A stretch of DNA of 64,000 nucleotides from Sphyrna mokarran (Eukaryota). The stretch spans positions 5,394,001 through 5,458,000 of the forward strand of contig JAGIQG010000016.1 of the NCBI GenBank assembly GCA_024679065.1, written 5' to 3'. The notes beneath the pieces are model-generated. The model did not search any database. It saw nothing but the letters and a program-made list of their open reading frames with translations, and was not told where the DNA came from. The position numbers and the translations under genes are program-made. This document shows, piece by piece, positions 19,627 through 64,000 of this stretch. Positions within the stretch are counted from its first letter, which is position 1; the number at the start of each line of letters is the position of its first letter.

Positions 19627-21049
19627 CTGTGAAAATGTGTCTGGATTTGTATCGAACCTGCAGAGCTCTGGGCCAAATGTGGGAAAGTGGGGCTTGGCTG
19701 GAAAGCTGATATCTCAGTCAGTGCACAGATAATGGGCTTTTCTGTGTTGTAAAAGGCAGCCAGTGATTCAAAGTTGATGGAAGTAAAGTGCAAAACGTAT
19801 TTTGTATAAATTGCAGTGATGTGTCTAACAGCATTGCTGATAGCAGCTTGCAAAATGATAATGATCTAGCACTTATTAAGGTTGGCATGATTATTTTATT
19901 TCCAGCCCACTAACTTCTCTTCATCTGCTTGGTCACACACTTTAGATTGTGGGGAGCAGATTAGATTTACAGTCTGAATGCATTCAGTTCCTTCTGTCCC
20001 GACTTTACACAGTCTTGAGAACAGTACACTTGTTTAGTGCACTTTATTTCATCACCTCTCTCTCTTTGCCTCTTGTCTTACCAAATTTGGAAGTAAAGAA
20101 AGCAGCCTCTTCATTTCTTCAATGGGTGGAGGTTTGGGCAGGTTCATAGCCAACCTACGCCCTCTTTCTGGATGCCCACTGCCCCTGATTGCCAGCATTT
20201 CAACGCAGATGCACAGAGGTGACACGGTGGCAGAGTGGGTTAGCACTACTGTCTCACAGCCCCAGGGGTCTGGGTTCGATTCCCAGCTCGGGTGACTGTC
20301 TGTGTGAAATTTGCACATTCTCGGGGATAGTGGTCAGTGCAGATCCGATGGGCTGAATGGCCTCTTTCTGCACAGTAAGGTTTCTATGACAATGACTCCA
20401 TGATACTGATCGCCTGCTCCTGCCAGGAACTATTTCAGAGAAGTTGAGGAGATATTTAGTCCCAGTTTAAAAGTTTTTGAAAAAAGTTTATTTATTAATG
20501 TCACAAGCAGGCTGACATTAACACTGAAATGAAAATCTCCGAGTCTCCACCTTTTTCGCGGACACTGCGGGGGAATTTAGCACGGCCAATGCACCTAACC
20601 AGCATGTCTTTCCGACTGTGGAGAGAAACCGGAGCACCCGGAGAAAACCCACCCAAACACAGGGAAAAGGTTCAAACTCCACACAGTCAGTGACCCAAGC
20701 CAGGAATCGAACCCAGGTTCCTGGTGCTATAAAGTAGCAGTGCTAACCACTGTATCACTGTGTTACCCAAGCTCTCAAAGAGGTGTTCCCAGTGTGGGGT
20801 GCTATTAGTATTGGAGATGGGAGGTTGGGCTGGTGTTGGAGGCCACATCCCAATTCTCAGACTCCCCTTCACTGTCACCTCTGGATCGTCTCCATTGAAC
20901 CTCTCAAACTTACTCAGCAGCCTGGTCAGAGAGTCTTTAGTGACATTGACATTTTATGGCCCATTTCTCAGTCCTCAATCCACTTGGGGTCACGTGTTAC
21001 AAATAGTTAGGACCTCATTCGCTAAGTTTAAAAGATGTATCCAATTTTT

Positions 21050-21785
21050 GATTTGATTTGTTATTGTCACAAACACGTGTTAGTATCCAGTGAAAAGCAT
21101 TGTTTCTTGCTCATTATACAGACCAAGCATATCGTTCATAGAGTACGTAAGGGAGAAGGAAATGAGAGAGTGCAGAGTGTAGTGTTACAGACGTAGCAAG
21201 GGGGTAGAGAGAGGTCAACTTAATATAGGGTAGGTCCATTCAGGAGTCTGATGGCAGCAGGGAAGAAACTGTTCTTGAGTCAATTGGTGATCTCAGGTTT
21301 TTGCATCTTTCTCCCGACAGGAGAAGATGGAAGGGAGTCTGTCCGGGGTGGTGGCGTTCTTGATTATACTGACTGCTTTTCCGAGGCAGTGTGAAGTGTA
21401 GATGAAGTCAATGATGGGAGGTTGGTTTGCATGATGGACTTGGCTATGCTCATCATCCTTTGTAGTTATTTGTGTTCCTGGGCAGAGCAGGGGCCATACC
21501 AAGCTGTGATACATGGGGAGAGCACACTTTTTATGATGCATCTGTAAAAACTGGTGTGAGTTGTGACGAACATGCAAAATTTCCTTAGTCTCTTGAGAAA
21601 GTAGAGACGTTGAGAGGTTTTTTTAACTATAGTGTTGGTGTGGAGGGACTAGGACAGGTTTTTGGTGTTCTCGACACCTAGAAACTTGAAGCGCTTGGCC
21701 ATTTCCACTTCATCCCTGTTGATGTAGACAGGGGCATGTTCTACACTGCGCTTCCTGAAGTCAACAATTGTCTCCTTCCTTTTAA
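21050..21785 (-). mobile_element. Rex1/Babar-type LINE RT C-terminal fragment (duplicate at ~62720-63455, +)
   Basis: Codons for FKFLGV..T.NLS.SLH...VKK..QRLYFLKRLRKF...FYRCI, a Rex1-like RT tail. Confidence 0.7.
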
Positions 21786-22361
21786 CTCCTGTTTGATTGG
21801 TGAGTTACAGACAGACCTGACTGAGGGTAAAGCTAATTGATCTCTGCGTGAAAAGGCACAATTAAACGGGAAGCTTTGTGAAGGTTGATTTATCCCAAAC
21901 TCCAATATATATGGTGCGAATACCAGTGAGTAATGTTATACGGAGAGACTGCAGGTACTGGGATGGATCTCCCTCCCATCAGGGAAATTAGAGATGGTGA
22001 AACTCTTTCTGGTTCTTGTGGTGTTGTAGGTTGGATGGTGGTACAATGATATTGTCACTGGAGGGGCAATAGTGGGTTTTCTCTGTAATTTTTCTATGGT
22101 CAGAGCTCAAGACAACTGGAAATATGATGATATTTTTACTGTTGTGGGGGAGTGGGGGAGGTGAAGCTGGAAAGGTGGGGCTGGGTAGAGGGCCAGTGAT
22201 AAGTGATAGCGAGGGAAGGACTGACAAAGATGCCCTGGACTACAAGACAAAGGGATTGCAAATGGTTGTGGTCACAACTTGGAAGGTTATTGATAGCTGC
22301 CATTAAGAGATCAGAATGTGTCAACGGCAGAACAACAGTAAGCAGTGTGACAAGGGATTGT

Positions 22362-23265
22362 ACGGTGGTACAATGGTTAGCACTGCTACCTCACAGTGCC
22401 AGGGTCCCAGGTTCAAATCCAGCCTTGGGTCACTGTCTGTGCAGAGTCTGCATGTTCTCCATGTGCCTGCATGGGTTTCTCTGAGCATTCTGCTTCCCCT
22501 CCACACTCCAAAGATTATAGATTAGGTGGATTTGTCATGCTAAATTGCTTCTTAGTGTCCCAAAACATGTAGATTGGTGGACTTACTGTGCTAACGTGCC
22601 AGTTTGCATCCAAAGATGTCTAGGTTAGGTGGATTGACCATGCTGAGTTGCCCCTTAGTGTCCAAAGAATGGCAGGTTAGGGGGATTAGCCATACTAAAT
22701 TGTTTCTCAGAGTACAGAGATGTGCACGTTATGTGGATTGCCATGATACATTGTCCTAAGTATTCAAAGATGTGGAGGTTAGGGGATTAGCCTTGCTAAA
22801 TTCTCCCTTAGTTTCCAGAGATGTGCAGGTTAGGTGAACTGGCCATGTTAACTTGCCCTTTAGTGTCCAAAGACGTGCAGATTAGATGGATTGGCAATGC
22901 TAAATTGCCCCTTAGTGTTCAAAGATGTACAGGTTAAGTGGATTGGCCATGCTAAATTGCCCCTTAGAGTTCGAAGATGTGCAGGTTAGGTGGATTGGCC
23001 ATGCTAAATTGTCCCTTAGTGTTCAAAGATGTACAGGTTAAGTGGATTGGCCATGCTAAACTGCATTTTAGTGTTCAAAAATGTGCAGGTAAAGTGGATT
23101 GGCCATGCTAAATTGCCCCTTAGTGTCCTAAGGTGTGCAGGTTAGGTGGATTGGCCGTGCTAAATTGCTCCTTACTGTCCAAAGATGCTCAGGTTAGGTG
23201 GATTGGCCATGCTAAATTGCCCCTTAGTGTCCAAAGATGTGCAGGTTAGATGGATTGACCATGGT
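22362..23265 (+). repeat. V-SINE head with a 52-bp tandem expansion (~14 units)
   Basis: SINE head at 22362-22505, then repeated 52-bp units; paralogous to 60054-61397. Confidence 0.9.
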
Positions 23266-23499
23266 GAATGCTGAGAATTATGTTGATAGAGCGAGGTGTG
23301 GACTTGTATGAGACGCTCTCTCTCTGAGAGGCAGGGGCCAAACAGCCTTCCTCTGCAATCCAGGCATTCAATGGTTCCATGGTACTTCCCTGAGCCAGGG
23401 AATCCAGGTCTGTTCCCTTCTCTGGAGAAACCCTGGATAACGCAAACAAGGCGATTGACATAATTCACAACAGGGACAGGAAGGGCTGGGATGAGGGAG

Positions 23500-25100
23500 A
23501 TGGGTCGGACATAGTTGAGAGCCCTGTCAATCACGGTGGACGGGAATCCATGATTACAGAAGAAGGAAGACTTATCAGCTGCTCCATTTTGGAAAGGGGC
23601 ATCATTGGAATTGATGCGACAGAGGCTCAGGAACTGAGAGAATGGGATGGAGTCTCACAGGATATGAGGTGTGAAGAGATGTAGTCATGGTGGCTGGAGG
23701 GAGCTGGTGTGCTTGCAATGGATAATGGTGGACAGAGGGGAGTTATAGGACAAAAGGTAAAATTATCCGGAGTATAGAGACGCAGAGAGACCTGGGGGTG
23801 CAGGTTCACAAGTCTCTGAAGGTGTCAGTACAGGTGGAGAATGTGATAAAGAAAGCCTATGGTATGTTAGCCTTCATGGGAAGGGATATAGAATACAAGA
23901 GTAGGAGTCTGATGTTGACGGTGTATAGATCGTTGGTTAGGCCTCACTTGGAGTACTGCGTCCAGTTCTGGTCGCCGTACTACCGGAAGGATGTAGAGGC
24001 CCTGGAGAGAGTGCAGAGGAGATTTACCAGGATGCTGCCTGGTAAAGGGCAGTCTTATGAGGAAAGATTGAACACACTGGGGTTGTTTTCCCTTGAAAGA
24101 TGTCGGCTGAGAGGGGATCTATTAGAGGTATATAAGATTATGAGGGGTACAGATAGAGTAAATGGTGGTAAGCTTTTTCCACCATTAGAAATGGATAGAA
24201 CAAGGGGTCACGGCCTCAGGGTGAGGGGAGCTATGTATAAGACGAATATTAGAGGGCAGTTTTTCACACAAAGGGTAGTGGGGGTGTGGAATGCACTGCC
24301 GAGTAAGGTGGTGGGAGCAGGCACGCTAGGGTTGTTTAAGGGTCTCTTGGACAGCCACATGAGCGGTCTGCAGATAGAGGGATGTAGCAGGACTGTCTAA
24401 ATATCGGGAGCTTTGGGACGACCAAATAGTATTAGAATATCTTTTAGTTTTGTCTCAGGGATGTCTCAGTTTTTCGCATGTTTAATAATGTCTTATTTGT
24501 TTTCACAGGCAATTCGGTCCACCTTGTTGACCAACAAGGTGCATGCATTCGGCAGGCCGTGCGAGGGCTGCTCTTTGATGTTGCTTCAGGAGTGGCCTAG
24601 TGCTTCACGTCGTGAGTGTGTGCTTAAACTGGACCATCTGATGGGCAACATGACAGCTCAGAGAGTATCGCTGTTGCTGTGCAGACACATGGATTTGGGC
24701 CTGTGTCTGCGAGAGTTTGCGCGTTCTCCCCGTGGCTGCGTGGGTTTTCTCCGGGTGCTCCGGTTTCCTCCCACATCCCAAAAATGTGCTCTTAGGCTGA
24801 TTGGGTAACAAATTGTCCCTATATTTGTCCCTATGTGGGACAATAGGCATAGCCTAAAGTCATGGATATGTCATTAAGACGTTAGGACGGCGGCGCGGGC
24901 TCGTTGGGCCGAAGGGCCTGTTTCCCGTGCTGTGTTGCTCTTTGTTCTTTGTTCTTTGAAATGGAGACAGAGAGGTTAAGGAAGGGAAAGGAAGCATCAC
25001 AGATGGACCCTGTGAAGATGACAGAGGGATAGAAATTGATCATTTTTTTCCAGACCCAGAAGAGAACATGAAGCGTCAGCGATACAGTTATCGATGTTCC
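23500..25100 (-). mobile_element. Penelope-like RT/linker fragment split by a CR1 insertion (uninterrupted paralog at ~59440-59830, +)
   Basis: Codons for SIPFSQFLSLCRINSNDAPFQNGAADKSSFFCNHGFPSTVIDRAL. Confidence 0.65.
23737..24957 (+). mobile_element. CR1 LINE 3' part (second subfamily) with long V-domain-containing 3' UTR; present only in the left arm
   Basis: Intact ORF 23798-24400 (RPHLEYCVQFWSP, FFTQRVV); UTR 24401-24957 ending (TTTGTTC)n; empty site at ~59582 in the right arm. Confidence 0.93.
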
Positions 25101-25439
25101 AGCATTTTCTGTTTCTGGTTAGTTTTATTATCGAACATGTTGCAGTTGTGTACCTGTCACAACACAGAGCGAGAGGAGAACATTACAAGCCTGTCTCTTA
25201 CTGTCAGCGCCTCTCCTGTGAGATGGGGTTGCCAGCAGAAATTAAGCTGCAGGATGTGTGAATAAAGAGGAAATGCTTATCGTGCATCAACATTTGAACA
25301 TAATGACAAAGCGGCAGTGGGGAAGAAAGCAGATGAGGTTTGTTGGGATAAAATTGAGAGGTCCCATTCTCCCTGAACGTTTCTCGATTCTATTTCTTGT
25401 AGAAACACAGGCGGATGATCCCAATGCAAAATAGCAGCA

Positions 25440-25479
25440 ATGGTTTGGAATTTAATTGTAATTCTCGCACTCCTCTGTG
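25440..25479 (+). CDS. Leader exon, copy L
   Basis: MVWNLIVILALLC+G followed by phase-1 donor G|GTGAGT. Confidence 0.8.
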
Positions 25480-25619
25480 GTGAGTTTCCAGCGCACAATT
25501 TGTTATTTGGGGTAGTTTTTGTTTCTGGAAAGTCCGTGTCTCTGCTCGTTAAATTCTGCTTGAAAACATCGGAAACTTTTCATTTTAGTTGCTTCATGTC
25601 ACGTGGGCTGGAAATATCA

Positions 25620-27245
25620 GTGTGTCAGTGTGAGTTGTGTTTGTGAGTGTGTGTATGTGTATGTGTGTATGCCATGTGTCTGTGCTTGTGTGGGAGTGTC
25701 TGTGCGAGTGTGTATGTGTGAGTGCGTGTGAGTCTGTTCATGTGTGAGTATATGTGTGCGAGAGTGTGAGTGTAAGTATATGATTGTGTAAATGTGTGTG
25801 TGAGAGTGTGTGTGCATGTGTGTGTGTGTGTGTGAGTGTGTGTGTATGTCAGTGTTTGTGTGTCAGTGTGTGTGGGTGAGTGTTAGGGAGTGTGTGACTG
25901 AGTGAGTGTGTTGCCTAAGTGTGCGTGTGTGTGTGTGAGAGAGAAAGAGAGAGAGAGAGAGAGAGTGTGAGTGTGTGTATGTGATTGTTTGTGTGGATGT
26001 GTGTGAGTGTGAACATGTGTGTATGGTGTGAGTGTGTGTATATATGGCTGTGTGTGAGTGAGTGTGTGTGTGTGTTGTGTGTGTGGGTGTGTGAGTGTGT
26101 GTGGGTGTATGAGAGTGTGCGCGAAGTGTGTGTGTATGAGAGTGTGTGTGTGTCTAAATGGGTGTGTGTGTGAGAGTGTGTGAGTGCGTGTATGTGATTG
26201 TGTGTGTGAGTGTGAATGTTTGTGTATGGGTGTGAGTATGTGTGTATGTGGGTTTGTGTGAGTGAGTGTGTGCATGTGTGATAGAGTGTGTGCATATGAG
26301 TGTGTGTATATATGTGTGTGTGTGTGTGAGAGAGAGAGAGAGTGTGAATGTGTGTATGTGATTGTTTGTGTGGGTGTGTGTGAGTGTGAACGTGTGTGTA
26401 TGGGTGTGANNNNNNNNNNNNNNNNNNNNNNNNNNNNNNNNNNNNNNNNNNNNNNNNNNNNNNNNNNNNNNNNNNNNNNNNNNNNNNNNNNNNNNNNNNN
26501 NNNNNNNNNNNNNNNNNNNNNNNNNNNNNNNNNNNNNNNNNNNNNNNNNNNNNNNNNNNNNNNNNNNNNNNNNNNNNNNNNNNNNNNNNNNNNNNNNNNN
26601 NNTGAGTGTGTGTATGGTGTCCATGTGAGAGAGAGTGTGTGGGTGTGTCTGGGTATGGGTGAGAGTGACTGTGTGGGTGTGTGTGTGTCAGAGTGTGTGT
26701 GTGTGCGAATGTGTATGTGTGTNNNNNNNNNNNNNNNNNNNNNNNNNNNNNNNNNNNNNNNNNNNNNNNNNNNNNNNNNNNNNNNNNNNNNNNNNNNNNN
26801 NNNNNNNNNNNNNNNNNNNNNNNNNNNNNNNNNNNNNNNNNNNNNNNNNNNNNNNNNNNNNNNNNNNNNNNNNNNNNNNNNNNNNNNNNNNNNNNNNNNN
26901 NNNNNNNNNNNNNNNNNNNNNNNNNNNNNNNNNNNNNNNNNNNNNNNNNNNNNNNNNNNNNNNNNNNNNNNNNNNNNNNNNNNNNNNNNNNNNNNNNNNN
27001 NNNNNNNNNNNNNNNNNNNNNNNNNNNNNNNNNNNNNNNNNNNNNNNNNNNNNNNNNNNNNNNNNNNNNNNNNNNNNNNNNNNNNNNNNNNNNNNNNNNN
27101 NNNNNNNNNNNNNNNNNNNNNNNNNNNNNNNNNNNNNNNNNNNNNNNNNNNNNNNNNNNNNNNNNNNGTGAGTGTGTTTTGTGTGTATGTGTGTGTGTGT
27201 GAGTGAGTGTGTGTGGGTAAGTGAGTGAGTGAGTGTGTGTGAGAG
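25620..27245. repeat. (TG)n-rich low-complexity tract with N gaps (paralog (CA)n at 56883-57397)
   Basis: Seen directly. Confidence 0.95.
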
Positions 27246-28972
27246 TCTATATAAAATGAAGATTATCAAATATGACAGTGACAGCCCATTTGGTCCCTTG
27301 TGTTTGCTTGATGTTATTTACTGATCTTTGAGCACAAACTTTAAACCACTTAATTAATGAATCTTGGAGATTTTGTTACTCACTGGGTCCACCAGTGCCT
27401 GTGGGTTTGGAAGGTGCTGCCTCAGGAGCCTTGGTGAGTTCCTGCAGTGCATCTTGTGGACTGTACATCCAGCTCCCACTGTGTGACGGTGGTGGAGGGA
27501 GTGAGTGAGTGTGGATAGGATGCCAGTCAAATGGGGTTGCTTTGTCCTGGATGATGTGTAGTCTTGAGTGTTGTTGGAAAATTGTGCTATTGGGTGAAAA
27601 TTCTGACATGCAGTTGCAGTGGCAAAAAATAAATGTCAAGTGATGGTCGTATGTCCTTAATCACAGATTTGTTACGATGCAGAAGGAGGCCATTCAGCCC
27701 ATCGTCCTATATCAGCTCAGCCAATCAGCATCATGACTTACTGCCATCCTCCTGTCTTTCCCTGAACCCCTGCACGCTGCTTCTATTCAATAATCATCTC
27801 ATACTCTCTCAAATTCCTCAATTGATCCCACCTCCACCGCACTTTGAGGCAGAACATTCCAGAACCCAGCCGCTTGCTGTGTGAAAAAATAACATCCCAT
27901 CTGCTTCTTTTGCCAATAGCTTTAGCAATGTGATGGGACAGTTCCTGGGGTTATCCTGGAAGAGACAAGGAGGCAGTAGCTCACTGCAGGATTATTTGGG
28001 CCCCTTTCAAGTCCTCGGTCGGGGGATGGTGTTTGAAGTACCATCAAAATCGGAATAGCAGAACACCATTTTCCGGGCACTTGCTGCTTTCCCACATCCC
28101 TACAATTTTCCCCCCTGAAATTCCATTATTTGCCCCATTGGGACAGCAGGGAGGCACAGTGGTTAAGCACTGCTGTCTCACAGTGCCAGGTACTTGGGTT
28201 CAATTCTGGCCTTGGGTGATTTTCTGTGCGGAGTTTTCCCTGTGTCTGGATGGGTTTTCTCCAGGTGCTCCCGTTTCCTCCCACACTCCAAAGATGTGTG
28301 GGTTAGGTTGATTGGCCGTGCTAAATTGATCCTAGCATCGGGGAATTAGCAGGGTAAATAAGTGGAGTTATGGGGATAGGACCTGTGTGGGATTGTGGTC
28401 GGGGCAGAATTGATGGGCCAAATGGCCTCCTTCTGCACAGTAGAGATTCTAAGATTTGACATGTGCTGGATAATGAAGCGATGCCCCATCAGTTGCTGCT
28501 CTTTGCTGCAGGAGAAGGGATTGGAAATGTACTCCAGAGACTGAGAGTATATTGCCCACTTTACCCACAGACCCTTGTCTCAGTGTTGCTGCATTTGTGT
28601 TCGATTCCAAGAAACCTGTGCAGGAATCCCCAGGAGAAATTGTTCTCCGTCGCCAGTATCTGTGGCGCTGTCATCACAGTATTCTCCAGCCTCGCCTGTG
28701 GCTGGGATTCTCCAGACCCGCTGCTGCGGACAGAGAGCGCCAAATTTTTCCATTCTCGCTGCCGAGAATTCTGATCAGTAATGCCTCCACAGTTTAGCAT
28801 GTCCCTTTTACTGATGTTGCCGGAGTGATTCTGTGCAGTTGCACTTCCGAAACTGTTGAGGATTTTGCTGCTTTAATGAGAGTTTGAACCTGAATTGAAA
28901 GTGAAACAGCTCCTGGAAAGTTTGCTAATGGACTCAATGCGAGTTGTTCTTGCAGTTACTGCCAGGTTACAG

Positions 28973-29263
28973 GGGTGACACTCACTGCTTTTGCTGGGAC
29001 AGACTTGCTACTCCCCTGCCAAGGAACAGGATACATCACAACATTAATGTACCTTGCCTGGAAGAGGATTATTGAAAAGAATGATATTGTTGTGCTCAGA
29101 CCTCAGAACGAGATAAACTTCCCAAATCCACATTATTCCAGTCTTCAGAAACAATTGGATGGATCCATTCTATTAAATTCTTTGCAAATGCAGGATATTT
29201 GTGAGATCTCTTCATTGTCTCAAAGAATTAAACAAAGAAAAATCATGAATTTGACAGTAATAG
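28973..29263 (+). CDS. Ig V-set exon, copy L (damaged)
   Basis: VTLTAFAGTDLLLPC...LAWKR...GSILLNSLQMQD[----]ICEI...MNLTV has the B-strand Cys, C-strand Trp and F-strand Cys. The in-frame phase-1 acceptor is at 28972; an alternative AG at 28955 is out of frame. Confidence 0.8.
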
Positions 29264-30093
29264 ATGTGTATTTTCCCAGGAGTGATGTTGAAGCGGAGGG
29301 TAAATGTAATAATCATACGGGCAGTGTATTAGACTCTGCATCCAGGTGAGAACTGAATACCTCTGCAATCATCATTAGAATATTGCTGCACCATTCTAGT
29401 GTTTGAATCCAGCCACGTTCTAGGTCAGACTTGTATCAGAGAGTTTGTAGTGAAATGTCTTGTTAGCAGTTGCTCAGTGGTTGTGAGTGGAGTGTGGGAC
29501 GGTGGCACAGTAGTTAGCACTGTTGCCTCACAGCTTCAATTGCTGGCTAGGGTCACTGTCTGTCTGGAGTCTGCACATTCTCTTCCTGTCTGCGTGGGTT
29601 TCCTCCAGGTGCTCTGGTTTCCTCCCACAGTCTGAAAGACCTGCTGGTTAAATGCATTGGCCATGCTAAATTCTCCAAACAGATGCCGGAGTGTGGCACC
29701 TCGGGGATTTTTCACAGAAACTTCATTGCAATGTTAATTAAACCTATTTATGACCAATAATTAATTTTAGGGTTATTTTAAAATGGATTGATTAGCCTTC
29801 TCCCATTACCGGGACTGACATTCTGCAACAGAAATGTGTTAGTACGCCTTATTCCTTGCAGGAATACAAAGGAAAATGGTGAATGTGAGGCCTGTAGGAG
29901 TGTATTCCCCCCGGAATATTGAAGGTTTATCTGTAGTGATGCCTAACAATCCTGTATTGGTGTTGGGGATGTGGATGACACAAAAAATAAGTGGGAAGCT
30001 AAGTGGTTCGCACAACTGCTTCGCACCTCCAGGGACCTGAGTTTGATTGATTCCCTGCTTGGGTCACTGTCTACGTGGGTTTCACCTGGGGAG

Positions 30094-52917: not shown

Positions 52918-54860
52918 CTAGGGGGGGATTAACCAGAAACCGGTTCAGTGTCAGTTTCAATATCTTGTCATTAAAATAGAACAGAAACATGAAACAGATG
53001 AATATGTCAATGCCCCCAAATGTTAAATAGCCCAATGGACTCCCAGATCCCTCTGCACTGCAGCTTTCTGCAGTCTTTCTCCATTTAAATAATATTAAGC
53101 ATCTTTATTCTTCCTACTAAAGTGCGTAACTCCACATTTTCCTTATATTACAATCCATCAGTTTATTTTCCCAACTCACTTAACTTGGTTGTATCCCTCT
53201 GGAGGCCAAACGGCTGAGAATCATTGGCCTCCCAGCCGTGTGATTCCCCTGGGCGGGAGGAGGAATGTTGTTTGATAATGGCAGGAAATTCTGCCACCCC
53301 CAATCTCAATGAGAACTCTCATTGGTATCATTTCCCCCTGCCCCTCTCGGGGGGGGGGGGAAATCTGCACGCAAGGGTGGGCTACCGGTGGGACTGGAAA
53401 ACCCTGCTGGAGAATTCAGCCTTTGTGCCCTCCTTGGCACTTGCCTTCCCACCTATCGATGTGTCGTGTGCAAACTTGGCATCAGTCTCTTCGCTTCCCT
53501 CATCCAAGTCATTAATATTTATTGTAAGTAACTGTGGCTCCAGCACTGATCCCAGCGACTCTCCTCGAGTTACATTGCGGACTGCGACCCTCCCAGAGTG
53601 GGAGAAGGTGGATATAATGGACTTTAATCACCTCACATTCACAACCTCCTTTTCAATGAAAGCTTCCTACATGAGCAGAGAATAATCAAGTATCACATTT
53701 GTGACCCTGTACTAAAACTGACCATGGGGGCTAACACAGACTTAGAATGAAGAATTGAAAATGTGCAACACTTCTTGTTGATAACTGCGGGGAGTGGCGG
53801 GGGGGGAACAAATTCACTTCAATATTCATCCCACATAGAATAGAATGCCTGCAGTGCAGAAGGAGGCCATTCAGCCCATTAAGTCTGCATTGACAACAAT
53901 CCCGCTCCAGCCCTTATATCCACAAATTTACTCCGCTAATCCCTCTAACCTGGACACCCCAGGATACCGTGGGCAATATAGTGTGGCCAATCAACCCCTA
54001 ACCCACACATCTTTGGACTGAGGAAAGAAACCAGAGCCCCCGGAAGGAAACCCACGTAGACAGTGACCCAAGCAGGGAATCAATCAAACTCAGGTCCCTG
54101 GAGCTGTGAAGCAGTTGTGCGAATCATTGTGCCACACTTACCTTCCCACTTATTTTTGTGTCATTCACATCCCCAATATAGGATTGTTAGGCATCACTAC
54201 AGATAAATCTTCAATATTCCAGGAGGAATACAGTCCTACACATTCACCATTTTCCTATGTATTCCAACAAGGAATAACGTGTAGTCGCACATTTCTGTTG
54301 CAGGATGTCTATCCTAGTAATGAGAGAAGCCTAATCAATCCATTTTAAAATAATCCTAAAATTAATTATTGGTCACAAAATAGGCTTACATTAACATAGC
54401 AATGAAGTTACTGTGAAAATCCCCTCGTCGCCACCTGTTTGGCACAGCGAGGGAGAATTTAGCATGTGCCAATGCGCCTAATCAGGAAACCAGAGCATCC
54501 AAAGGAAACCTACACAGACGGAGAAATTGCAGAGTCCACGCAGGCAGTGACCCAAGCTCGGAATTGAAGCTGGGTCCCTGGCGCTGTGAAGCAGCAGTGC
54601 TAACCACTGAGCCACCGTATTGTCCTCCCACTCACAACCATGCGGTAACCGCTAACCACATATTTCATTACAAACTCTCTGATGCATTTCTGAGCTCGAA
54701 TGTGGCTGGATTCAAACATGAGAACGATGCAGCAATATCCTGGTGATGTTTGCAGAAGTATTCAGTTCTCACAATGTAATACACTGCCCCATTCCTCCTC
54801 CCCAACCCGATTTTTACACTGGCCTCCACGCATCAATAATGCCCCTGGCAAAATATATAC

Positions 54861-55160
54861 CTCCAACGATCAAATTCATTGTTTTCCTTTGTATTTCTTG
54901 AGACAATGAAGAGATCTCACAAATATACATTCCCTCATCCTGCATTTGCAAAGAATTTAATAGAATGGATCCATCCAATTGTTTCTGAAGACTGGAATAA
55001 TGCGGATTTGGGAAGTTAATCCCGTTCTGAGGTCTGTGCACAACAATATCATTCTCTTCAATATCCCTCTTCCAGGCAATGTACATTAATGTTGTGATGT
55101 ATCCTGTTCCTTGGCAGGGGAGTAGCGAGTCTGTTCCAGCAAAAGCTGTGAGTGTCACCC
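54861..55160 (-). CDS. Ig V-set exon, copy R (intact)
   Basis: VTLTAFAGTDSLLPCQG...IAWKR...GSILLNSLQMQDEGMYICEISS...MNLIVG+G|GTATAT, with the canonical D-x-G-x-Y-x-C motif. Confidence 0.88.
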
Positions 55161-57398
55161 CTGTAACCTGGCAGTAACTGCAAGAACAACTCGCATTGAA
55201 TCCATTAGCAAACCTTCCAGGAGCTGTTTCACTTTCAATTCAGGTTCAAACTCTCATTAAAGCAGCAAAATCCTCAACAGTTTCAGAAGTGCAACTGCAC
55301 AGAATCACTCCGGCAACATCAGTAAAAGGGACATGCTAAACTGTGGAGGCATCACTGACCAGAATTCCCGGCAGCAAGAATGGAAAATCTGGCGCTCTCT
55401 GTCCGCGGCAGCGGGTCTGGAGTATCCCAGCTGCGGGCGAGGCTGGAGAATACAGTGATGAGAGTATACCAGCGATGGAGAACAATTTCTCCCGGGGATT
55501 CCTGCACAGGTTTTTTGGAATCAAACACAAGTGCGGCCAAACTGAGACAAGAGTCTGTGAGTAAAGTGGGCAATATACTCTCAGTCTCTGGAGTACATTT
55601 CCAATCCCTTCTCCGATAGCAAAGAGCAGCAACTGATGGGGCATCGCTTCATTATCCAGCACATGTCAAATCTTAGAATCTCTACTGTGCAGAAGGAGGC
55701 CATTCAGCCCATCAATTCTGCCCCGACCACAATCCCACCCAAGTCCTATCCCCATAACTCCACTTATTTACCCTGCTAATTCCCCGATACTAGGGTCAAT
55801 TTAGCACGGCCAATCAACCTAACCCACACATCTTTGGAGTGTGGGAGGAAACGGGAGCACTTGGAGGAAACCCATCCAGACACGGGGAAAACTCCGCACA
55901 GAAAATCACCCAAGGCCAGAATTGAACCCAAGTACCTGGCACTGTGAGACAGCAGTGCTTAACCACTGTGCCTCCCTGCTGTCCCAATGGGGCAAATAAT
56001 GGAATTTCAGGGGGGAAAATTGTAGGGATGTGGGAAAGCAGCAAGTGCCCGGAAAATGGTGTTCTGCTATTCCGATTTTGATGGTACTTCAAACACCATC
56101 CCCCGACCGAGGACGTGAAAGGGGCCCAAATAATCCTGCAGTGAGCTACTGCCTCCTTGTCTCTTCCAGGATAACCCCAGGAACTGTCCCATCACATTGC
56201 TAAAGCTATTGGCAAAAGAAGCAGATGGGATGTTATTTTTTCACACAGCAAGCAGCTTGGTTCTGGAATGTTCTGCCTCAAAGTGTGGTGGAGGCAGGTT
56301 CAATTGAGGAATTTCAGAGAGTATGAGATGATTATTGAATAGAAGCAGCGTGCAGGGGTTCAGGGAAAGACAGGAGGATGGCAGTAAGTCATGATGCTTA
56401 TTTGTTGAGCTGATACAGGACGATGGGCTGAATGGCCTCCTTCTACACTGTAATAATTCTGTGATTAAGGACATATGACCTTCATTTGAAATTTATTTTT
56501 TTGCCACTGCAACTGCGGGTTAGGATTTTCACCCAATAGCAGAATTTCCCAACAACACTCAAGACTACACATCATCCAGGACAAATTAACCCCACTTGAT
56601 TGGCATCCTATCCACACTCACTCACTCCCTCCACCACCGTCACACAGTGGGAGCTGGATGTACAGTCCACAAGATGCACTGCAGGAACTCACCAAGGTTC
56701 CTTAAGCAGCACCTTCCAAACCCACAGGCACTGGTGGACCCAGTGAGTAACAAAATCTCCAAGATTCATTAATTAAGGGGTTTAAAGTTTGTGCTCAAAG
56801 ATCAGTAAATAATGTCAAGCAAACACAAGGGACCAAATGGGCTGTCACTGTCATATTTGATAATCTTCATTTTATATAGACTCTCACACACACTCACTCA
56901 CTCACTCACACACACTCACACAAAACACACTCACACACACAAAACAAAAACACACACACACACACACATGCACTCACTCACACACATNNNNNNNNNNNNN
57001 NNNNNNNNNNNNNNNNNNNNNNNNNNNNNNNNNNNNNNNNNNNNNNNNNNNNNNNNNNNNNNNNNNNNNNNNNNNNNNNNNNNNNNNNNNNNNNNNNNNN
57101 NNNNNNNNNNNNNNNNNNNNNNNNNNNNNNNNNNNNNNNNNNNNNNNNNNNNNNNNNNNNNNNNNNNNNNNNNNNNNNNNNNNNNNNNNNNNNNNNNNNN
57201 NNNNNNNNNNNNNNNNNNNNNNNNNNNNNNNNNNNNNNNNNNNNNNNNNNNNNNNNNNNNNNNNNNNNNNNNNNNNNNNNNNNNNNNNNNNNNNNNNNNN
57301 NNNNNNNNNNNNNNCACACGTGCTCACACACTTACAAATAGACATACATACACACACACAAACACACATACACACACCTACCCACGCACACACACATT

Positions 57399-57953
57399 GG
57401 GCCCAATTTTACTACATTGATTCTGTGTTGGGTGGACTTAGAACTGGGAATATTTCTGTACCATCTCTTAGATCAAATCTCAGGCGCCTCCATTCTGCCT
57501 GAAGAAATAGCAGCGATTGTGAATCGTGCTGTAGAAACCTGTGGGTGGAGTTATCGGCCCTGAAACACTGCAGCTCCAATCGGAGCAAAAACATCCCCTG
57601 ACACATCACTCCCGGGCTGGATAACACCTCTCCCCGAACCCACACAGATATTGTTCCACGCTCACAACATAACTGACCCCCCTATCCCCCTACCCTCCCG
57701 TGACCCAGACCGGCCATGACCCCCCCTGACCTCCTCCCCTCACCCGGGGGGCCTTCGGAACCCGCCTCCGTCTCCTCCACCGGGGAATCACCTGACCCAC
57801 CTCGGGGATGGTCTCGATGGTGACCATTTTCAGCCATTGGCGAAGAGGGAACCGGGTGCGAAGGAGGGCGCGGATTGTGCTGCTCACCTTGCGCCCGACT
57901 TTACCAGGCTTCAGCGCCCGAAAACAGGCGCAACCGGATGGTAAAATCAGACC
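57399..57953. mobile_element. Possible GC-rich non-autonomous DNA transposon (MITE-like)
   Basis: Imperfect terminal inverted repeats GGCCCAATTTTAC / GTAAAATCAGACC inside a CA-repeat tract. Confidence 0.4.
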
Positions 57954-59062
57954 ACCCTTCCTCATGCACGCCCGCGTAATAAAACACATGCACTCACGCA
58001 CACTCACAGACACAATATATATGAATCTACTTGTGCACTCATAAATATCATCGATCGCAATGTTCGGTGATAATTGCATAATATTCAGTACCATCCATCA
58101 CTGCTCAGGTATCGTTATGTGCAGCAAAAGCAACGTTCATGGTTTAACCAGCAAGAGAAAAGTAAGATTGGTATCACACAAGATCCCCACACTGGGCATC
58201 TCCACCTAGAGAGATTCCAACTATTTCCCCTTGAAATTCAACTCAATCGCATTGCTGGATCCCGAACTGTTAACATCCTGGGAATTGTTATTGGCCAGAA
58301 ACTCAACTTAAGCAGTTATATAGATACACGAGGAGGTTAAAGACAGGGAATTCTGAACGACTAACTCTTCCGAACCTGCCCTGCGCCTACAAAGCACCAG
58401 TAAAGGATGGAATGGAATTCTGTCTACTTGCCTTGAATGAGTGAATGAATAAGAAGTTCGACACCATCCAGGACAAAACACTCGCTTGATCGGCATCCCA
58501 ACCACAAACGTTCGATCCCTCCACCACCACGGAGTCATGTGCGTTATCTACAAGATGGGCTGCAACAAATCACTGATGTTCCAGCAACTTCCAAACTCAC
58601 GGCTGCTATCACCTGGAAGAAGTCTCCCAACACCAGGTTTAAGTCCCGGTTTAAACCTGGTGTTGTGAGACTTCTTACTGCGTTCACTCCAGTCCAACAC
58701 CGGCATCTCTACATCATAACCATCTAGAAGGACACGGGAAGCAGATTCCTAGGAAGACCATCACTTGGCAGTCCCCCTCCGAGTCACTCACCATCCGGGC
58801 TTGGAAATATATTGGCTACTCTTCACTGCAGCTGGATCGAGATCCGGGAACAGCGCGATGGGCGCTCCTACATCTCAGGGATGGCAGCGGTTCAATAATA
58901 ATTACAGATGGGAAATAAACACTGATATTTCCAGCCCACGTGACATGAAGCAACTAAAATGAAAAGTTTCTGATGTTTTCAAGCAGAATTTAACGAGCAG
59001 AGACACGGACTTTCCAGAAACAAAAACTACCCCAAATAACAAATTGTGCGCTGGAAACTCAC

Positions 59063-59102
59063 CACAGAGGAGTGCGAGAATTACAATTAAATTCCAAACC
59101 AT
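59063..59102 (-). CDS. Leader exon, copy R
   Basis: Identical to copy L: MVWNLIVILALLC+G|GTGAGT. Confidence 0.8.
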
Positions 59103-60053
59103 TGCTGCTATTTTGCATTGGGATCATCCGCCTGTGTTTCTACAAGAAATAGAATCGAGAAACGTTCGGGGAGAATGGGACCTCACAATGTTATCCCAAC
59201 AAACCTCATCTGCTTTCTTCCCCACTGCCGCTTTGTCATTATGTTCAAATATTGATGCACGATAAGCATTTTCTCTTTATTCACACATCCTGCAGCTTAA
59301 TTTCTGCTGGCAACCCCATCTCACAGGAGAGGCGCTGACAGTAAGAGACAGGCTTGTAATGTTCTCCTCTCGCTCTGTGTTGTGACAGGTACACAACTGC
59401 AACATGTTCGATAATAAAACTAACCAGAAACAGAAAATGCTGGAACATTGATAACTGTATCGGTGACACTTCATGTTCTCTTCTGGGTCTGGAAAAAAAT
59501 GATCAATTTCTATCCCTCTGTCATCTTCACAGGGTCCATCTGTGATGCTTCCTTTCCCTTCCTTGACCTCTCTGTCTCCATTTCTGTCCACCATTATCCA
59601 TTGCAAGCACACCAGCTCCCCCCAGCCACCATAACTACATCTCTTCACACCTCATATCCCGTGAGACTCCATCCCATTCCCTCAGTTCCTGAGCCTCTGT
59701 CGCATCAATTCCAATGATGCCCCTTTCCAAAATGGAGCAGCTGATAAGTCTTCCTTCTTCTGTAATCATGGCTTCCCGTCCACCGTGATTGACAGGGCTC
59801 TCAACTATGTCCGACCCATCTCCCACATCCCAGCCCTTCCTGTCCCTGTTGTGAATTATGTCAATCGCCTTGTTTGCATTATCCGGGGTTTTTCCAGAGA
59901 AGGGGACAGACCTGGATTCTCTGGCTCAGGGAAGTACCATGGAACCATTGAATGCCTGGAGTGCAGAGGAAGGTTGTTCAACCCCTGCCTCTCAGAGAGA
60001 ACGTCTCATACAAGCCCATACCTCGCTCTATCAATATAATCCTCAGCATCCAC

Positions 60054-61397
60054 CATGGTCAATCCACCTAACCTGAACAGCTTGGGACACTGAGGGGCAA
60101 TTTAGCATGGCCAATCTACCTAACCTGAACATCTTGGGACACTAAGGGGCAATTTAGTATGACTAATCCACATAACCTGAACATCTTAGGACACTGAGGG
60201 GCAATTTAGCATGGCCAATCCATCTAACCTGAACATCTTGGGGCACTAAGGGGCAATTTAGCATGGCCAATCCATCTAACTTGAACATCTTAGGACACTG
60301 AGGGGCAATTTAGCATGGCCAATCCATCTAACCTGAACATCTTGGGACACTAAGGGGCAATTTAGTATAACTAATCCACATAACCTGTACATCTTTGTAC
60401 ACTAAGCAACCATTTACCATGGCTAATCTCCCTAACCTACACATCTTTGAACACTAACGGGCAATTTATTGAGGCTGTTCAACCTAACCTGCGCATTCTT
60501 GGACACTAAGGGGCAAGCTGGCATGGTCAATCCACCTAACCTGAACAGCTTGGGACACTGAGGGGCAATTTAGCATGGCCAATCTACCTAACCTGAACAT
60601 CTTGGGACACTAAGGGGCAATTTAGTATGACTAATCCACATAACCTGAACATCTTAGGATACTGAGGGGCAATTTAGCATGGCCAATCCATCTAACCTGA
60701 ACATCTTGGGGCACTAAGGGGCAATTTAGCATGGCCAATCCATCTAACTTGAACATCTTAGGACACTGAGGGGCAATTTAGCATGGCCAATCCATCTAAC
60801 CTGAACATCTTGGGACACTAAGGGGCAATTTAGTATAACTAATCCACATAACCTGTACATCTTTGTACACTAAGCAACCATTTACCATGGCTAATCTCCC
60901 TAACCTACACATCTTTGAACACTAACGGGCAATTTATTGAGGCTGTTCAACCTAACCTGCGCATTCTTGGACACTAAGGGGCAAGCTGGCATGGCCAATC
61001 CACCTAACCTGCACATCTCTGGAAAATAAGGAACAATTTAACATGGCTGATCCCCTTAACCTGCACATCGTTGAATACTAAGAAGCAATGTAGCATGGCC
61101 AAACCACATAACCTACACATTAGCATGGCCAATCCACCTAAGCTAGACATCTTCAAACACAAAGTGGCAAGTTAGCATGGCCAATTCACCGAACCTACAT
61201 GTCTTGGGAATTAAGGAGCAATTTAACATGATCAATCCACCTAACCTACATACCTTTGGAGTGTGGGAGGAAACTGGAGTGCCCGGAGGAAATCCACGCA
61301 GACACATGCAGACTCCTCACAGACAGTGACCTGAGGCTGGATTTGAACCTGGGACCTTGGCACTGTGAGGTAGCAGTGCTAATCACTGTACCACTAT
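60054..61397 (-). repeat. V-SINE with a 52-bp tandem expansion (~23 units) including a 468-bp higher-order duplication
   Basis: 60054-60521 is repeated at 60522-60989; SINE head at ~61260-61397. Confidence 0.9.
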
Positions 61398-61403
61398 ACA
61401 GTC

Positions 61404-62132
61404 ACCGGGCTTAGGGTGAGGGGGGTAAGGTATAATTTGGATGCTAGAGGGAGTTTTTTCACACAGAGGGTGGTGGGGGTATGGAACGCACTGCCAAGTA
61501 AAGTGGTGGAGGCAGACACTCTGGAGTTATTTAAGAAATACTTAGATGGGCACATGAACAGAATGGGAATGAAGGGATATAGAAAACTGATTTAAAATAG
61601 GGATCATGAGCCTTGGGAGTTCCCTGGGAAGTGTGTAAATTGTCGATGATATTGATGTATTTGTTTTATCCTACAGGTACTTCGGTCCGCCTTGTTGTCT
61701 AACAAGGGGCATACACGCGATGGGTCGTGAGAGGGCTGCTCTTGGATTTTTTTGAGATTATCCTAGTGCTTCACGTCGTTAGTGTACGCTTGACCTAATC
61801 CATTTGATGGGCAACACGACAGCTCAGTGACTATCGCTGTGCTGTGCAGGTACATGGATTTGGGCCTGTGTCTGTGGGAGTTTGCGCATTCTCCCCATGC
61901 TTGCGTGGGTTTTCTCTGGGTGCTCCGGTTTCCTCCCACATCTCAAAGATGTGCTCTTAGGCTGATTGGCAGAACAAATTCTGCCTAAATTGTCTCAAAT
62001 TTGGTTCTAATGGATAGATCTATAAACATAGACAGGGATCACAGGTAGAGGTGGGAACATTGAGGTAGCGGCGCAGGCTCGTTGAGCCAAAGGGCCTGTT
62101 TCCTGTGCTGTTTTATTCTTTGTTCTTTGTTC
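61404..62132 (+). mobile_element. CR1 3' end with long V-domain UTR, right arm only
   Basis: Same subfamily as 2175-5120 and 9025-9600; empty site at ~22360 in the left arm. Confidence 0.92.
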
Positions 62133-64000
62133 AATCCTTTGTCACACTGCTTACTGTTGTTCTGCCAGTGACACATTCTGATCTCTTATTGGCAGCTATC
62201 AATACCCTTCCAAGCGGCGACCATGATCATTTGCAACCCCTTTGTCTTGTAGTCCAGGGCATCTTTGTCAGTCCTTCCCTCGCTTTCACTTATCACTGGC
62301 CCTCTACCCAGCCCCACCTTTCCAGCTCCTCCTCCCCCATTCCCCCACAACAGTAAAAAACATCATCATATTTCCAATTGTCTTGAGCTCTGACCATAGA
62401 ACCATGGAAAAATTACAGAGAAAATCCACTTTACTGTCCCTCCAGTGACAATACCATTGTACCACCATCCAACCCACAACACCACGAGGACCCAGAAAGA
62501 GTTTCACCATCTCTAATTTCCCTGATGGGAGGGAGATCCATCTCAGTACCTGCAGTCTCTCCGTATAACATTACTCACTGGTATTCGCACCATATATATT
62601 GGAGTTTGGGATAAATCAACCATCACAAAGCTTCCCGTTTAATTGTGCCTTTTCACGCAGAGATCAATTAGCTTTACCCTCAGTAGGGTTTGTCTGTAAC
62701 TCACCAATCAAACAGGAGTTAAAAGGAAGGAGATAGTTGTTGACTTCAGGAAGTGCAGTGTAGAACATGCCCCTGTCTACATCAACAGGGATGAAGTGGA
62801 AATGGCCAAGCGCTTCAAGTTTCTAGGTGTCAAGACCACCAAAAACCTGTCCTAGTCCCTCCACACCAACACTATAGTTAAGAAAACCCACCAACGTCTC
62901 TACTTTCTCAAGAGACTAAGGAAATTTTGCATGTTCGTCACAACTCACACCAGTTTTTACAGATGCATCATAAAAAGTGTGCTCTCCCCATGTATCACAG
63001 CTTGGTATGGCCCCTGCTCTGCCCAGGAACACAAATAACTACAAAGGATGATGAGCATAGCCCAGTCCATCATGCAAACCAACCTCCCATCATTGGCTTC
63101 ATCTACACTTCACACTGCCTCGGAAAAGCAGTCAGTATAATCAAGAACGCCACCACCCCGGACAGCTTCCCTTCCATCTTCTCCTGTTGGGAGAAAGATG
63201 CAAAAACCTGAGATCACCAATTGACTCAAGAACAGTTTCTTCCCTGCTGCCATCAGACTCCTGAATGGACCTACCCTATATTAAGTTGACCTCTCTCTAC
63301 CCCCTTGCTACATCTGTAACACTACACTCTGCACTCTCTCATTTCCTTCTCCCTTACGTACTCTATGAACGATATGCTTGGTCTGTATAATGTGCAAGAA
63401 ACAATGCTTTTCACTGGATATTAACACGTGTTTGTGACAATAACAAATCAAATCAAAAATTGGATACATCTTTTAAACTTAGCGAATGAGGTCCTAACTA
63501 TTTGTAACACGTGACCCCAAGTGGATTGAGGACTGAGAAATGGGCCATAAAATGTCAATGTCACTAAAGACTCTCTGACCAGGCTGCTGAGTAAGTTTGA
63601 GAGGTTCAATGGAGACGATCCAGAGGTGACAGTGAAGGGGAGTCTGAGAATTGGGATGTGGCCTCCAACACCAGCCCAACCTCCCATCTCCAATACTAAT
63701 AGCACCCCACACTGCGAACACCTCTTTGAGAGCTTGGGTAACACAGTGATACAGTGGTTAGCACTGCTACTTTATAGCACCAGGAACCTGGGTTCGATTC
63801 CTGGCTTGGGTCACTGACTGTGTGGAGTTTGAACCTTTTCCCTGTGTTTGGGTGGGTTTTCTCCGGGTTCTCCGGTTTCTCTCCACAGTTGGAAAGACAT
63901 GCTGGTTAGGTGCATTGGCCGTGCTAAATTCCCCCGCAGTGTCCGCGAAAAAGGTGGAGACTCGGAGATTTTCATTTCAGTGTTAATGTCAGCCTGCTTG

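What the first reader, a model, noticed from the sequence alone, without database searches (positions are those of the whole stretch)
20504..64000. Inverted, convergent pair of nectin/PVR-like receptor genes with a sharp identity step at the end of the V exon
Seen: from the outer edge through the promoter, leader, intron 1 and V exon, the arms differ only by scattered substitutions and a few indels or insertions. At about 29223 / 54898 similarity drops abruptly (SQRIKQRKIMNLTVI versus SQEIQRKTMNLIVG) and stays visibly lower through the C exons to 36390 / 48210. Established: homogenisation of the 5' ligand-binding part between inverted paralogs by gene conversion is typical of paired immune receptors such as Siglec-11/16 and Siglec-5/14. 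Inference: an older duplicate had its 5' part overwritten, pointing to a birth-and-death, possibly paired-receptor, nectin-like family in sharks.
Basis: partly seen in the sequence, partly recalled or inferred. Interest (0 to 1): 0.7.

Follow-up and report, generated by a model that had tools for sequence, protein, structure and literature searches.

The report
Dead shark nectin-like receptor gene pair
Two broken, mirror-image copies of a shark cell-surface receptor gene have had their front halves copied onto each other, and their intact relatives in other sharks come as look-alike "on" and "off" receptors, a pairing typical of immune defence genes.

Summary
The inverted pair and the identity step are real: 3.4% versus 13.1% mismatch, break at 29223/54898. 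Shared SINE mutations show that the outer block has a more recent common ancestor. Its 0-11% patchwork points to repeated gene conversion.

The two copies are not paired receptors, because both are pseudogenes. They share a frameshift at the V-exon start (stop at codon 21) and a stop in C2, and each has private lesions. The left copy has no detectable TM or tail exons. Both carry activating-class leaders. Coordinate 20504 only mirrors the window end.

The family does look paired. Shark relatives have nectin ectodomains with either ITAM+YxN or ITIM+ITSM tails. In 5 of 13 shark species both classes were found, 88-100% identical in the ectodomain and 19-37% in the tail. A third, inhibitory-class leader exon lies head-to-head at 13718. 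Seven literature searches found no description of this family.

Verdict: ordinary neutral conversion between dead copies, inside a probable CEACAM1/CEACAM3-like paired-receptor family of sharks.

The parts
20504..29223 (+). Left arm, homogenised outer block (upstream flank, leader, intron 1, most of V exon); outer limit not seen
   Evidence: 169 of 4951 mismatches, patchy 0-11%
54898..64000 (-). Right arm, homogenised outer block; cut by the window end
29224..36389 (+). Left arm, diverged inner block
   Evidence: 551 of 4209 mismatches; 21% in 29224-29655
48211..54897 (-). Right arm, diverged inner block
25440..25479 (+). Left leader exon (activating-class signal peptide, phase 1 donor intact)
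28956..29263 (+). Left V exon: shared frameshift near the start (stop at 28976-28978), shared 15-nt net loss in the D strand, private 12-nt deletion in the DxGxYxC motif, donor GT replaced by AT
32120..32741 (+). Left C1 (C2-set_2) exon, split by a ~325-bp SINE with a 5-bp target-site duplication; first Cys codon is Tyr
34978..35070 (+). Left first half of C2 exon: 10-nt deletion; stop at 35066 shared with the right copy; last family exon found in this copy
59063..59102 (-). Right leader exon (identical to left)
54861..55177 (-). Right V exon: same shared frameshift and D-strand loss; V-set Pfam 3.6e-10; best PDB hit nectin-1
52651..52917 (-). Right C1 exon: two frameshifting deletions (net 27 nt); the stretch between them, including the first Cys, is out of frame
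49521..49624 (-). Right first half of C2 exon: +1 frameshift; shared stop at 49525
46874..47010 (-). Right second half of C2 exon, three frameshifts
43192..43293 (-). Right TM exon (activating class), 4 codons short, donor GT replaced by AT
41270..41313 (-). Right first cytoplasmic exon (ITAM class); the Tyr of the YxN motif is His, donor reads AT; the ITAM-coding exons were not found
13667..13718 (-). Third family leader exon, inhibitory (ITIM) class, intact ATG and phase 1 donor, head-to-head with the left copy 11.7 kb away; no V exon found in 1-13666
23737..24957 (+). Retroelement fragment present only in the left arm, inside the homogenised block
61404..62128 (.). Retroelement fragment present only in the right arm, 93% identical to the copy at 2190-2914
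57400..58918 (.). Right intron 1 sequence with no counterpart in the assembled left intron (which has N gaps)

Best explanation
The window holds two pseudogenes of the activating (ITAM-tail) class of a shark nectin-like receptor family.

1. An inverted duplication copied the 5' part of one gene, from upstream through the first half of C2. The gene was probably already damaged, since both copies carry the same stop there (stop shown; order of events inferred). The left copy either never received or later lost C2b, TM and tail.
2. Both copies then decayed without clear constraint to about 13% divergence (shown).
3. Opposite orientation lets the arms pair in a hairpin loop. Several intrachromosomal non-allelic gene-conversion tracts of different ages re-homogenised upstream flank, leader, intron 1 and V exon; the tract nearest the step ends about 40 nt before the end of the V exon. 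A more recent common ancestry of this block is shown. Conversion by multiple tracts is inferred from the patchwork; donor direction is unknown.
4. The conversion spread inactivating V-exon lesions rather than preserving a ligand-binding site, so here it is a neutral by-product of geometry.

In other sharks the intact family most likely works as paired receptors: an inhibitory ITIM+ITSM member and an activating member with its own cytoplasmic ITAM and a GRB2-type YxN motif, whose ectodomains are kept alike by the same conversion process. The sequence pattern is shown; signalling, ligand and expression are inferred by analogy with CEACAM1/CEACAM3.
For: Step and recent ancestry:
- Step statistics.
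- Two SINEs in the outer block carry 37 shared versus 7 private derived changes, and two in the inner block 7 versus 47 (Fisher p=5e-13). The step therefore reflects ancestry, not mutation rate.
- Patchwork of 0-11% and an identical run of 293 columns (permutation p=0.004).

Decay:
- Leader plus V stops at codon 21 in both copies.
- Frameshifts, stops and three GT-to-AT donors; a SINE inside left C1.
- Inner exons are more, not less, diverged than introns (67/399 vs 484/3810).
- pN/pS is 0.68 (119 codons) and 0.53 (85 codons), neither different from 1.
- C1 end branches are 0.22 and 0.28 versus 0.06-0.12 in Mustelus.
- The two copies are sisters in the V tree (100/99) and the C1 tree (89/86), so no third donor is needed among the known sequences.

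Family:
- Of 29 named proteins, 10 have ITAM/YxN tails, 9 have ITIM+ITSM tails by regex and 10 are unclassed. One unclassed protein, P0164, was relabelled ITIM by hand.
- The tail tree splits by class (100/100, 1 change, 0 of 500 shuffles as low).
- In 5 of 13 shark species both classes occur, with V 88-96%, C1 99-100%, C2 88-98% and tails 19-37% identical.
- Opposite orientation as the route to intrachromosomal conversion is stated in PMC5112662 (passages).
Against: - The outer end of the homogenised block is outside the window, so one long template-switch event followed by smaller tracts is not excluded.
- Reads are unavailable, and the assembly has N gaps in both first introns.
- pN/pS point estimates are below 1 and the tests are weak, so a period of function after duplication is not excluded.
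- A stop-free right-copy product (leader, V via a cryptic acceptor at V nt 18, TM) exists on paper.
- The C1 sister grouping is not starred (89/86).
- The inner block is overdispersed as well, so patchiness alone is not specific to conversion.
- 8 of 13 shark species did not show both tail classes among the hits.
- Family proteins are automatic gene models. Some opposite-class pairs are named as 'isoforms' (Stegostoma, Carcharodon), and P0011 and P0163 show no TM segment.
Confidence: 0.72

Rival explanations
1. One long replication-based event (break-induced template switch between the inverted paralogs at the end of the V exon) copied one arm's whole 5' flank over the other in a single step; later small tracts or rate noise made the patches.
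For: The step is sharp (interval 29196-29243), follows a 29-bp identical run, and the block is at least 8.7 kb, against about 3 kb in SIGLEC11/16 (PMC5701461).
Against: Segments from 0 to 11% mismatch, some near the inner level, argue for several ages. Dispersion is higher outside than inside.
Confidence: 0.17
2. Assembly artefact: the near-identical block is the second haplotype of one gene's 5' end, mis-joined to the other gene's 3' end.
For: Gapped scaffold with N runs in both first introns; identical runs of 150-293 bp in the outer block could bridge short-read contigs. No reads were available.
Against: 3.4% mismatch plus kb-sized private inserts is high for alleles. PMC9826928 places three pelagic sharks at the bottom of a fish heterozygosity list (passages and Discussion; no figures seen; 'usually under 1%' is recalled). 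The step lies inside contigs, about 2 kb from the nearest gaps, with homology continuing on both sides and only 29 identical bases at the break.
Confidence: 0.06
3. One reading: the two copies are a functional paired receptor couple whose ligand-binding V exon is kept alike by selected conversion.
For: The homogenised block ends at the V exon; the family has paired tails elsewhere; a cryptic acceptor could restore the V frame.
Against: Shared stop at codon 21; loss of the D-strand Arg and the FP motif in both copies; loss of DxGxYxC and the V donor in the left copy. Same-class leaders. No left TM or tail. The exon is no more conserved than its flanks (11/308 vs 158/4643).
Confidence: 0.04
4. 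No exchange: the outer block simply mutates more slowly or is under purifying selection.
For: It contains the promoter and V exon.
Against: Outer SINEs have collected as many derived changes from their family majority as inner ones, but shared (37 shared vs 7 private; inner 7 vs 47). Most of the block is intron, flank and repeats.
Confidence: 0.01

Closest known systems
CEACAM1/CEACAM3-type paired receptors (mammals; Xenopus ceacam pairs, PMC5112662; reptiles, PMC13278318)
   Same: Inhibitory ITIM/ITSM member versus activating member with its own cytoplasmic ITAM and YxN motif; ectodomains more alike within a species than tails; opposite orientation allowing intrachromosomal conversion (passages; here).
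   Different: The ectodomain is nectin-type: profile E 7e-68 to nectin-1 versus 1.4e-11 to CEACAM6, one domain only. In the intact shark pairs C1 is the most homogenised domain (99-100%) and V less so (88-96%), whereas in some X. tropicalis pairs conversion is confined to the N exon. The two window copies are same-class pseudogenes.
SIGLEC11/SIGLEC16 (PMC5701461)
   Same: Inverted neighbours with a 5' block covering upstream region and V exon homogenised by repeated conversion; a pseudogene allele acted as donor (passages).
   Different: Siglecs are head-to-head about 9 kb apart, the block is about 3 kb, the recipient stays functional and activation needs an ITAM adaptor. Here the pair is tail-to-tail, the block is at least 8.7 kb, both copies are dead and the family's ITAM is in its own tail. 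The head-to-head neighbour here is the third leader at 13718.
Nectins 1-4 and PVR/CD155 (Necl-5)
   Same: V-C1(C2-set_2)-C2 ectodomain; best PDB matches nectin-1, PVR, nectin-3, nectin-2.
   Different: No shark family member ends in the afadin-binding C-terminal motif (motif recalled; C-termini; only the frog protein P0169 has it). Tails carry ITAM or ITIM+ITSM. PVR has an ITIM isoform (recalled), but I recall no ITAM-bearing nectin or PVR.
CD96, CD226, CD200R, TIGIT (nectin-binding or paired receptors)
   Same: Opposing signalling in one ligand system (recalled).
   Different: Far weaker ectodomain match: CD200R1 6e-12, CD96 7e-9, CD226 3e-8, against 7e-68 for nectin-1. TIGIT is not among the 60 rows shown.

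Membership tests
Nectin/PVR-type ectodomain | V-set, C2-set_2 (C1) and third Ig domain in order | tested here: met
   Pfam V-set and C2-set_2 on window exons and relatives; exon order; family profile vs nectin-1 E 7e-68
Nectin/PVR-type ectodomain | V-domain interface motifs (Q before Trp, AX6G-like, F/Y-P; motifs recalled) | tested here: inconclusive
   F/Y-P found in 21 of 23 relatives in which the script located a V domain (6 of 29 had none located); absent in both window copies; A/V-X6-G in 15 of 23
Classical nectins 1-4 | C-terminal afadin-binding motif (recalled) | tested here: not met
   Absent from the C-termini of all 26 shark and 2 ray proteins, present in the frog protein
Functional gene (window copies) | Open frame from leader through TM using canonical splice sites | tested here: not met
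   Stop at codon 21 in both; further lesions
Paired receptors (the two window copies) | Opposite signalling class | tested here: not met
   Both leaders activating class; right tail ITAM class; left has no tail found
Paired receptors (shark family) | Similar ectodomains with ITIM/ITSM versus ITAM tails in one species (definition in PMC5112662) | tested here: met
   5 of 13 shark species; ectodomain 88-100%, tail 19-37%; tail tree splits by class 100/100
Paired receptors (shark family) | Separate, linked genes rather than splice variants | tested here: inconclusive
Paired receptors (shark family) | Shared ligand, co-expression on leukocytes, opposite signalling | not testable with these tools
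   Needs expression data and reporter assays
Non-allelic gene conversion between inverted repeats | Block with more recent common ancestry inside continuous older homology | tested here: met
Non-allelic gene conversion between inverted repeats | Both tract ends and non-reciprocal direction shown against an outgroup | not testable with these tools
   Outer end lies beyond the window; no orthologous shark DNA in the available collections
CEACAM family | CEACAM-type ectodomain as best match | tested here: not met
   CEACAM6 E 1.4e-11 on one domain versus nectin-1 7e-68

The most novel reading that the evidence does not exclude
Sharks have an ancient, apparently undescribed paired immune-receptor system built on a nectin/PVR ectodomain. 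One gene has an ITIM+ITSM tail and a linked gene has an ITAM+YxN tail. Both are present in galeomorph and squalomorph sharks, and their ectodomains are re-homogenised in each lineage. The activating member may be a decoy for pathogens that use the inhibitory member, as nectins and PVR are virus receptors in mammals (recalled). This window would be the graveyard end of that cluster: two dead activating copies beside the head-to-head start of the inhibitory partner at 13718.
Probability: 0.6. Interest if true: 0.75.

Novelty: new variant of a known kind. Interest (0 to 1): 0.55.

Why it matters
The locus itself is ordinary: conversion between inverted pseudogenes. It shows that a V-exon-bounded identity step can arise without a function being preserved. 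The family matters more. One survey (PMC4016189, passages) found no Fc receptor or C2-only LRC homologs in sharks, so the activating and inhibitory receptors of shark leukocytes are poorly known. A nectin-based ITAM/ITIM pair conserved across shark orders gives named, testable candidates. It would also extend the CEACAM1/CEACAM3 decoy design to a second scaffold and to cartilaginous fish.

Tried and rejected
- Left-copy C2b, TM or tail exons: searched by blastn with the right exons, tblastn with the C-terminal parts of the family proteins over 35001-48300, and a family HMM on six frames. None was found; the gap at 38232-38744 is unseen.
- ITAM-coding tail exons of the right copy: best scores 32 of 79 and 24 of 50, none between 36390 and 41270 on the minus strand.
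- V exon for the third leader in 1-13666: none.
- Donor direction: not resolved. SINE private changes are 3 left versus 4 right in the outer block.
- Target-site duplications for private inserts: the automatic search gave only 4-7 base words that I do not trust. Only the 5-bp duplication of the C1 SINE was confirmed.
- Purifying selection tests were non-significant and low in power (the inner value had a frame slip and is superseded). One search's splice read-out had off-by-one leader coordinates and is superseded; its column statistics stand apart from a one-base offset in the leader mask.
- Rfam: 0 matches.
- A short conversion tract as the source of the shared C2 stop: not supported, since the identical run there is about 27 bases and the longest inner run is unremarkable (p=0.10).
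- Absolute dating was not attempted.
- Cluster membership look-up could not be made.
- No structure or complex prediction was run: the sequence match to nectin-1 is already decisive, and no binding claim is made.
- Trees left out P0005, P0166, P0023, P0167, P0046, P0169 (fused, redundant, partial or outgroup models) and the unnamed P0016 and P0032.
Full report
OBSERVATION. Self-comparison shows collinear inverted homology between 20504-36389 (+) and 64000-48211 (-), interrupted by private inserts and N gaps. The left limit 20504 is the mirror of the window end, so the true outer edge is not seen. Eleven collinear blocks gave 9160 ungapped columns (the 52-bp arrays, GT microsatellites, gaps and private inserts are not in them). 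The best change point is left 29224 / right 54897: 169 of 4951 columns differ outside (3.4%, K2P 0.035) and 551 of 4209 inside (13.1%, K2P 0.146). 2LLR is 303, against at most 18 in 500 column shuffles and 98 in 500 block shuffles. The outer block is not uniform: segments run from 0 to 11%, with dispersion index 3.0-3.8; the inner block is overdispersed too, 2.3-2.8. The first 390 columns after the step are 21% different.

IS THE STEP ANCESTRY OR RATE? I polarised SINEs that sit at matching places in both arms against the majority base of other window copies. The two outer SINEs carry 37 shared and 7 private derived changes, the two inner SINEs 7 shared and 47 private (Fisher p=5e-13). An inner LINE piece gave only 5 informative sites and was left out. 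The outer block therefore has a more recent common ancestor, on average about a quarter of the age of the duplication (ratio of K2P values; inference). One inner SINE has no shared change, so it inserted shortly before the duplication (inference).

WHAT THE GENES ARE. The right V exon is a V-set domain (Pfam 3.6e-10) whose seven best PDB matches are nectin-1 (best 3.7e-8). Its nearest proteins are two Mustelus asterias nectin-like models at 68-69% (2 of 86 candidates). With these as guides, the right copy has leader 59102-59063, V 55177-54861, C1 52917-52651, C2a 49624-49521, C2b 47010-46874, TM 43293-43192 and a first tail exon from 41313. The left copy has leader 25440-25479, V 28956-29263, C1 32120-32741 and C2a 34978-35070, and nothing further was found. 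The 513-N gap at 38232-38744 is unseen.

BOTH ARE PSEUDOGENES. Leader spliced to V at the main acceptor stops at codon 21 in both copies. The right V exon is 22 nt shorter than the Mustelus protein predicts: about 7 at the start and 15 in the D strand, which removes the conserved Arg (my length arithmetic). These losses are shared and lie in the homogenised block. A stop replaces the codon after the family's invariant Trp at the end of C2a in both copies (35066, 49525), and the Trp codon itself reads Cys. This lesion lies in the diverged block, which suggests damage before the duplication (inference). Left-only lesions: a 12-nt loss in the DxGxYxC motif, a V donor reading AT, a SINE with a 5-bp target duplication inside C1, Cys to Tyr in C1, and a 10-nt loss in C2a. 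Right-only lesions: two frameshifting deletions in C1, +1 in C2a, three frameshifts in C2b, TM and tail donors reading AT, and Tyr to His in the YxN motif. Inner exons differ at 67 of 399 columns versus 484 of 3810 in introns; outer exons at 11 of 308 versus 158 of 4643. pN/pS is 0.68 and 0.53, not different from 1 at this power. C1 end branches are 0.22 and 0.28 against 0.06-0.12 for Mustelus. Against this reading: a cryptic acceptor at V nt 18 restores the V frame, and on paper the right copy could give leader-V-TM or leader-V-C1-TM without an internal stop. That needs a cryptic site, exon skipping and a damaged V domain.

THE FAMILY. A profile of six relatives found 29 proteins at E<=1e-45 among 6577 candidates: 25 from 13 shark species, 2 from a ray, 1 from a frog and 1 unnamed. 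The profile matches nectin-1 at 7e-68, PVR 4e-59, CD200R1 6e-12, CEACAM6 1.4e-11, CD96 7e-9 and CD226 3e-8. Of 29 named proteins (28 plus P0003), 10 have an ITAM and/or YxN tail (9 with a full ITAM), 9 have ITIM+ITSM and 10 are unclassed, mostly partial. I relabelled P0164 as ITIM by hand, because its first motif starts with Thr. Motif definitions follow PMC5112662. The tail tree of 19 classed rows plus the right window copy splits by class (100/100, one change, 0 of 500 shuffles as low), and the window tail falls in the ITAM class. The split is partly circular, because the class motifs lie in the aligned tail. Ectodomain trees group by lineage instead. Both classes were found in 5 of 13 shark species (S. 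torazame, Stegostoma, Cetorhinus, Carcharodon, Pristiophorus), with V 88-96%, C1 99-100%, C2 88-98% and TM+tail 19-37% identity, where both models hold the domain. The other 8 showed one class or none. The database shows one representative per 90% cluster, so close partners can be hidden. These are automatic models, some named as isoforms, and two ITIM models show no TM segment.

A THIRD GENE. A leader exon at 13718-13667 (minus) has an intact ATG and a phase 1 donor. It scores 32-61 against 9 of 10 ITIM-class N-termini (the tenth model lacks a leader, 15) and 12-23 against the 10 ITAM-class ones. The window pair's leader scores 62 against the Mustelus ITAM leaders and 10-27 against ITIM ones, with overlap for other ITAM leaders (11-34). 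It lies head-to-head with the left copy, 11.7 kb away. No V exon was found in 1-13666, so it is either a gene with a long first intron or an orphan leader.

MECHANISM. Shown: inverted partial duplicate, decay of both copies, more recent ancestry of the outer block. Inferred: hairpin pairing of oppositely oriented copies and several conversion tracts of different ages, the route described for ceacam pairs (PMC5112662, passages). The donor is unknown. Because the homogenised V exon is frameshifted in both copies, conversion here preserves no function. A single long template switch (0.17) and a mis-joined haplotype (0.06) remain as rivals; the step lies within contigs about 2 kb from gaps, after only 29 identical bases. 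For intact relatives, the likely function is CEACAM1/CEACAM3-like: an inhibitory receptor signalling through SHP phosphatases and an activating look-alike signalling through Syk and GRB2 (inference from motifs; pathway knowledge recalled).

COMPARISON AND NOVELTY. It works like CEACAM1/CEACAM3 at family level and resembles SIGLEC11/16 in geometry, but those genes are head-to-head with a block of about 3 kb (PMC5701461, passages). It is not a classical nectin (no afadin-binding C-terminus, motif recalled) and not a CEACAM. The two window copies fail the paired-receptor test. Seven searches for a prior description returned 4, 1, 0, 0, 1, 9 and 1 papers, none on this family by title and abstract start. 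I read passages of two of them (PMC6795676; PMC4016189) and found no such family. I also saw passages of PMC13278318, and passages and the Discussion of PMC9826928; its heterozygosity figure and all supplements were not seen. The library lacks most subscription journals, so absence from print is not established.

VERDICT. Observation right in essence. Interpretation half right: conversion and birth-and-death yes, a functional pair no. The value lies in the family, a probable nectin-based ITAM/ITIM paired-receptor system of sharks, and in the inhibitory-class leader next door. Interest 0.55.

Noticed in passing
13667-13718 (-): Third family leader exon of the inhibitory class, head-to-head with the left copy; its other exons are not in the window.
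   Followed up: partly
13925-14368, 14958-15406, 22507-23263, 60054-61114: Tandem arrays of a 52-bp unit that also occurs within the window's common SINE. The right-arm array holds a 334-bp exact repeat at offset 468, a recent internal duplication or assembly echo that the left array lacks.
   Followed up: partly
41007-41035 and 42779-42807: Exact 29-bp direct repeat flanking about 1.7 kb of SINE and LINE pieces inside the right gene's intron between TM and tail exons; possibly a long target-site duplication.
   Followed up: no
3207-5198 (-) and 6610-7605 (+): LINE reverse transcriptase and endonuclease fragments (Pfam RVT_1, Exo_endo_phos_2), in opposite orientations around the gap at 5621-5872.
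   Followed up: no
2177-2914, 9014-9601, 31746-32004, 61404-62142: Copies of one relatively young retroelement 3' end, 85-93% identical to each other; useful as time markers for the conversion tracts.
   Followed up: partly
29263, 43192, 41270: Three different splice donors of the two copies all read AT in place of GT; probably independent transitions, unexplained.
   Followed up: no
52651-52917 (-): The right C1 exon keeps an open frame end to end because its frameshifts compensate, although the stretch between them is out of the Ig frame; no Pfam match for that frame.
   Followed up: partly
proteins P0155/P0156, P0008/P0011, P0158/P0159, P0164/P0165: In intact shark pairs C1 is the most homogenised domain (99-100%) and V is less so, the reverse of the window pair; consistent with diversifying pressure on V.
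   Followed up: no
protein P0005: The 688-aa Heptranchias model is nearly twice the family length and may be two neighbouring genes fused by annotation; it ends in an inhibitory-type tail.
   Followed up: no
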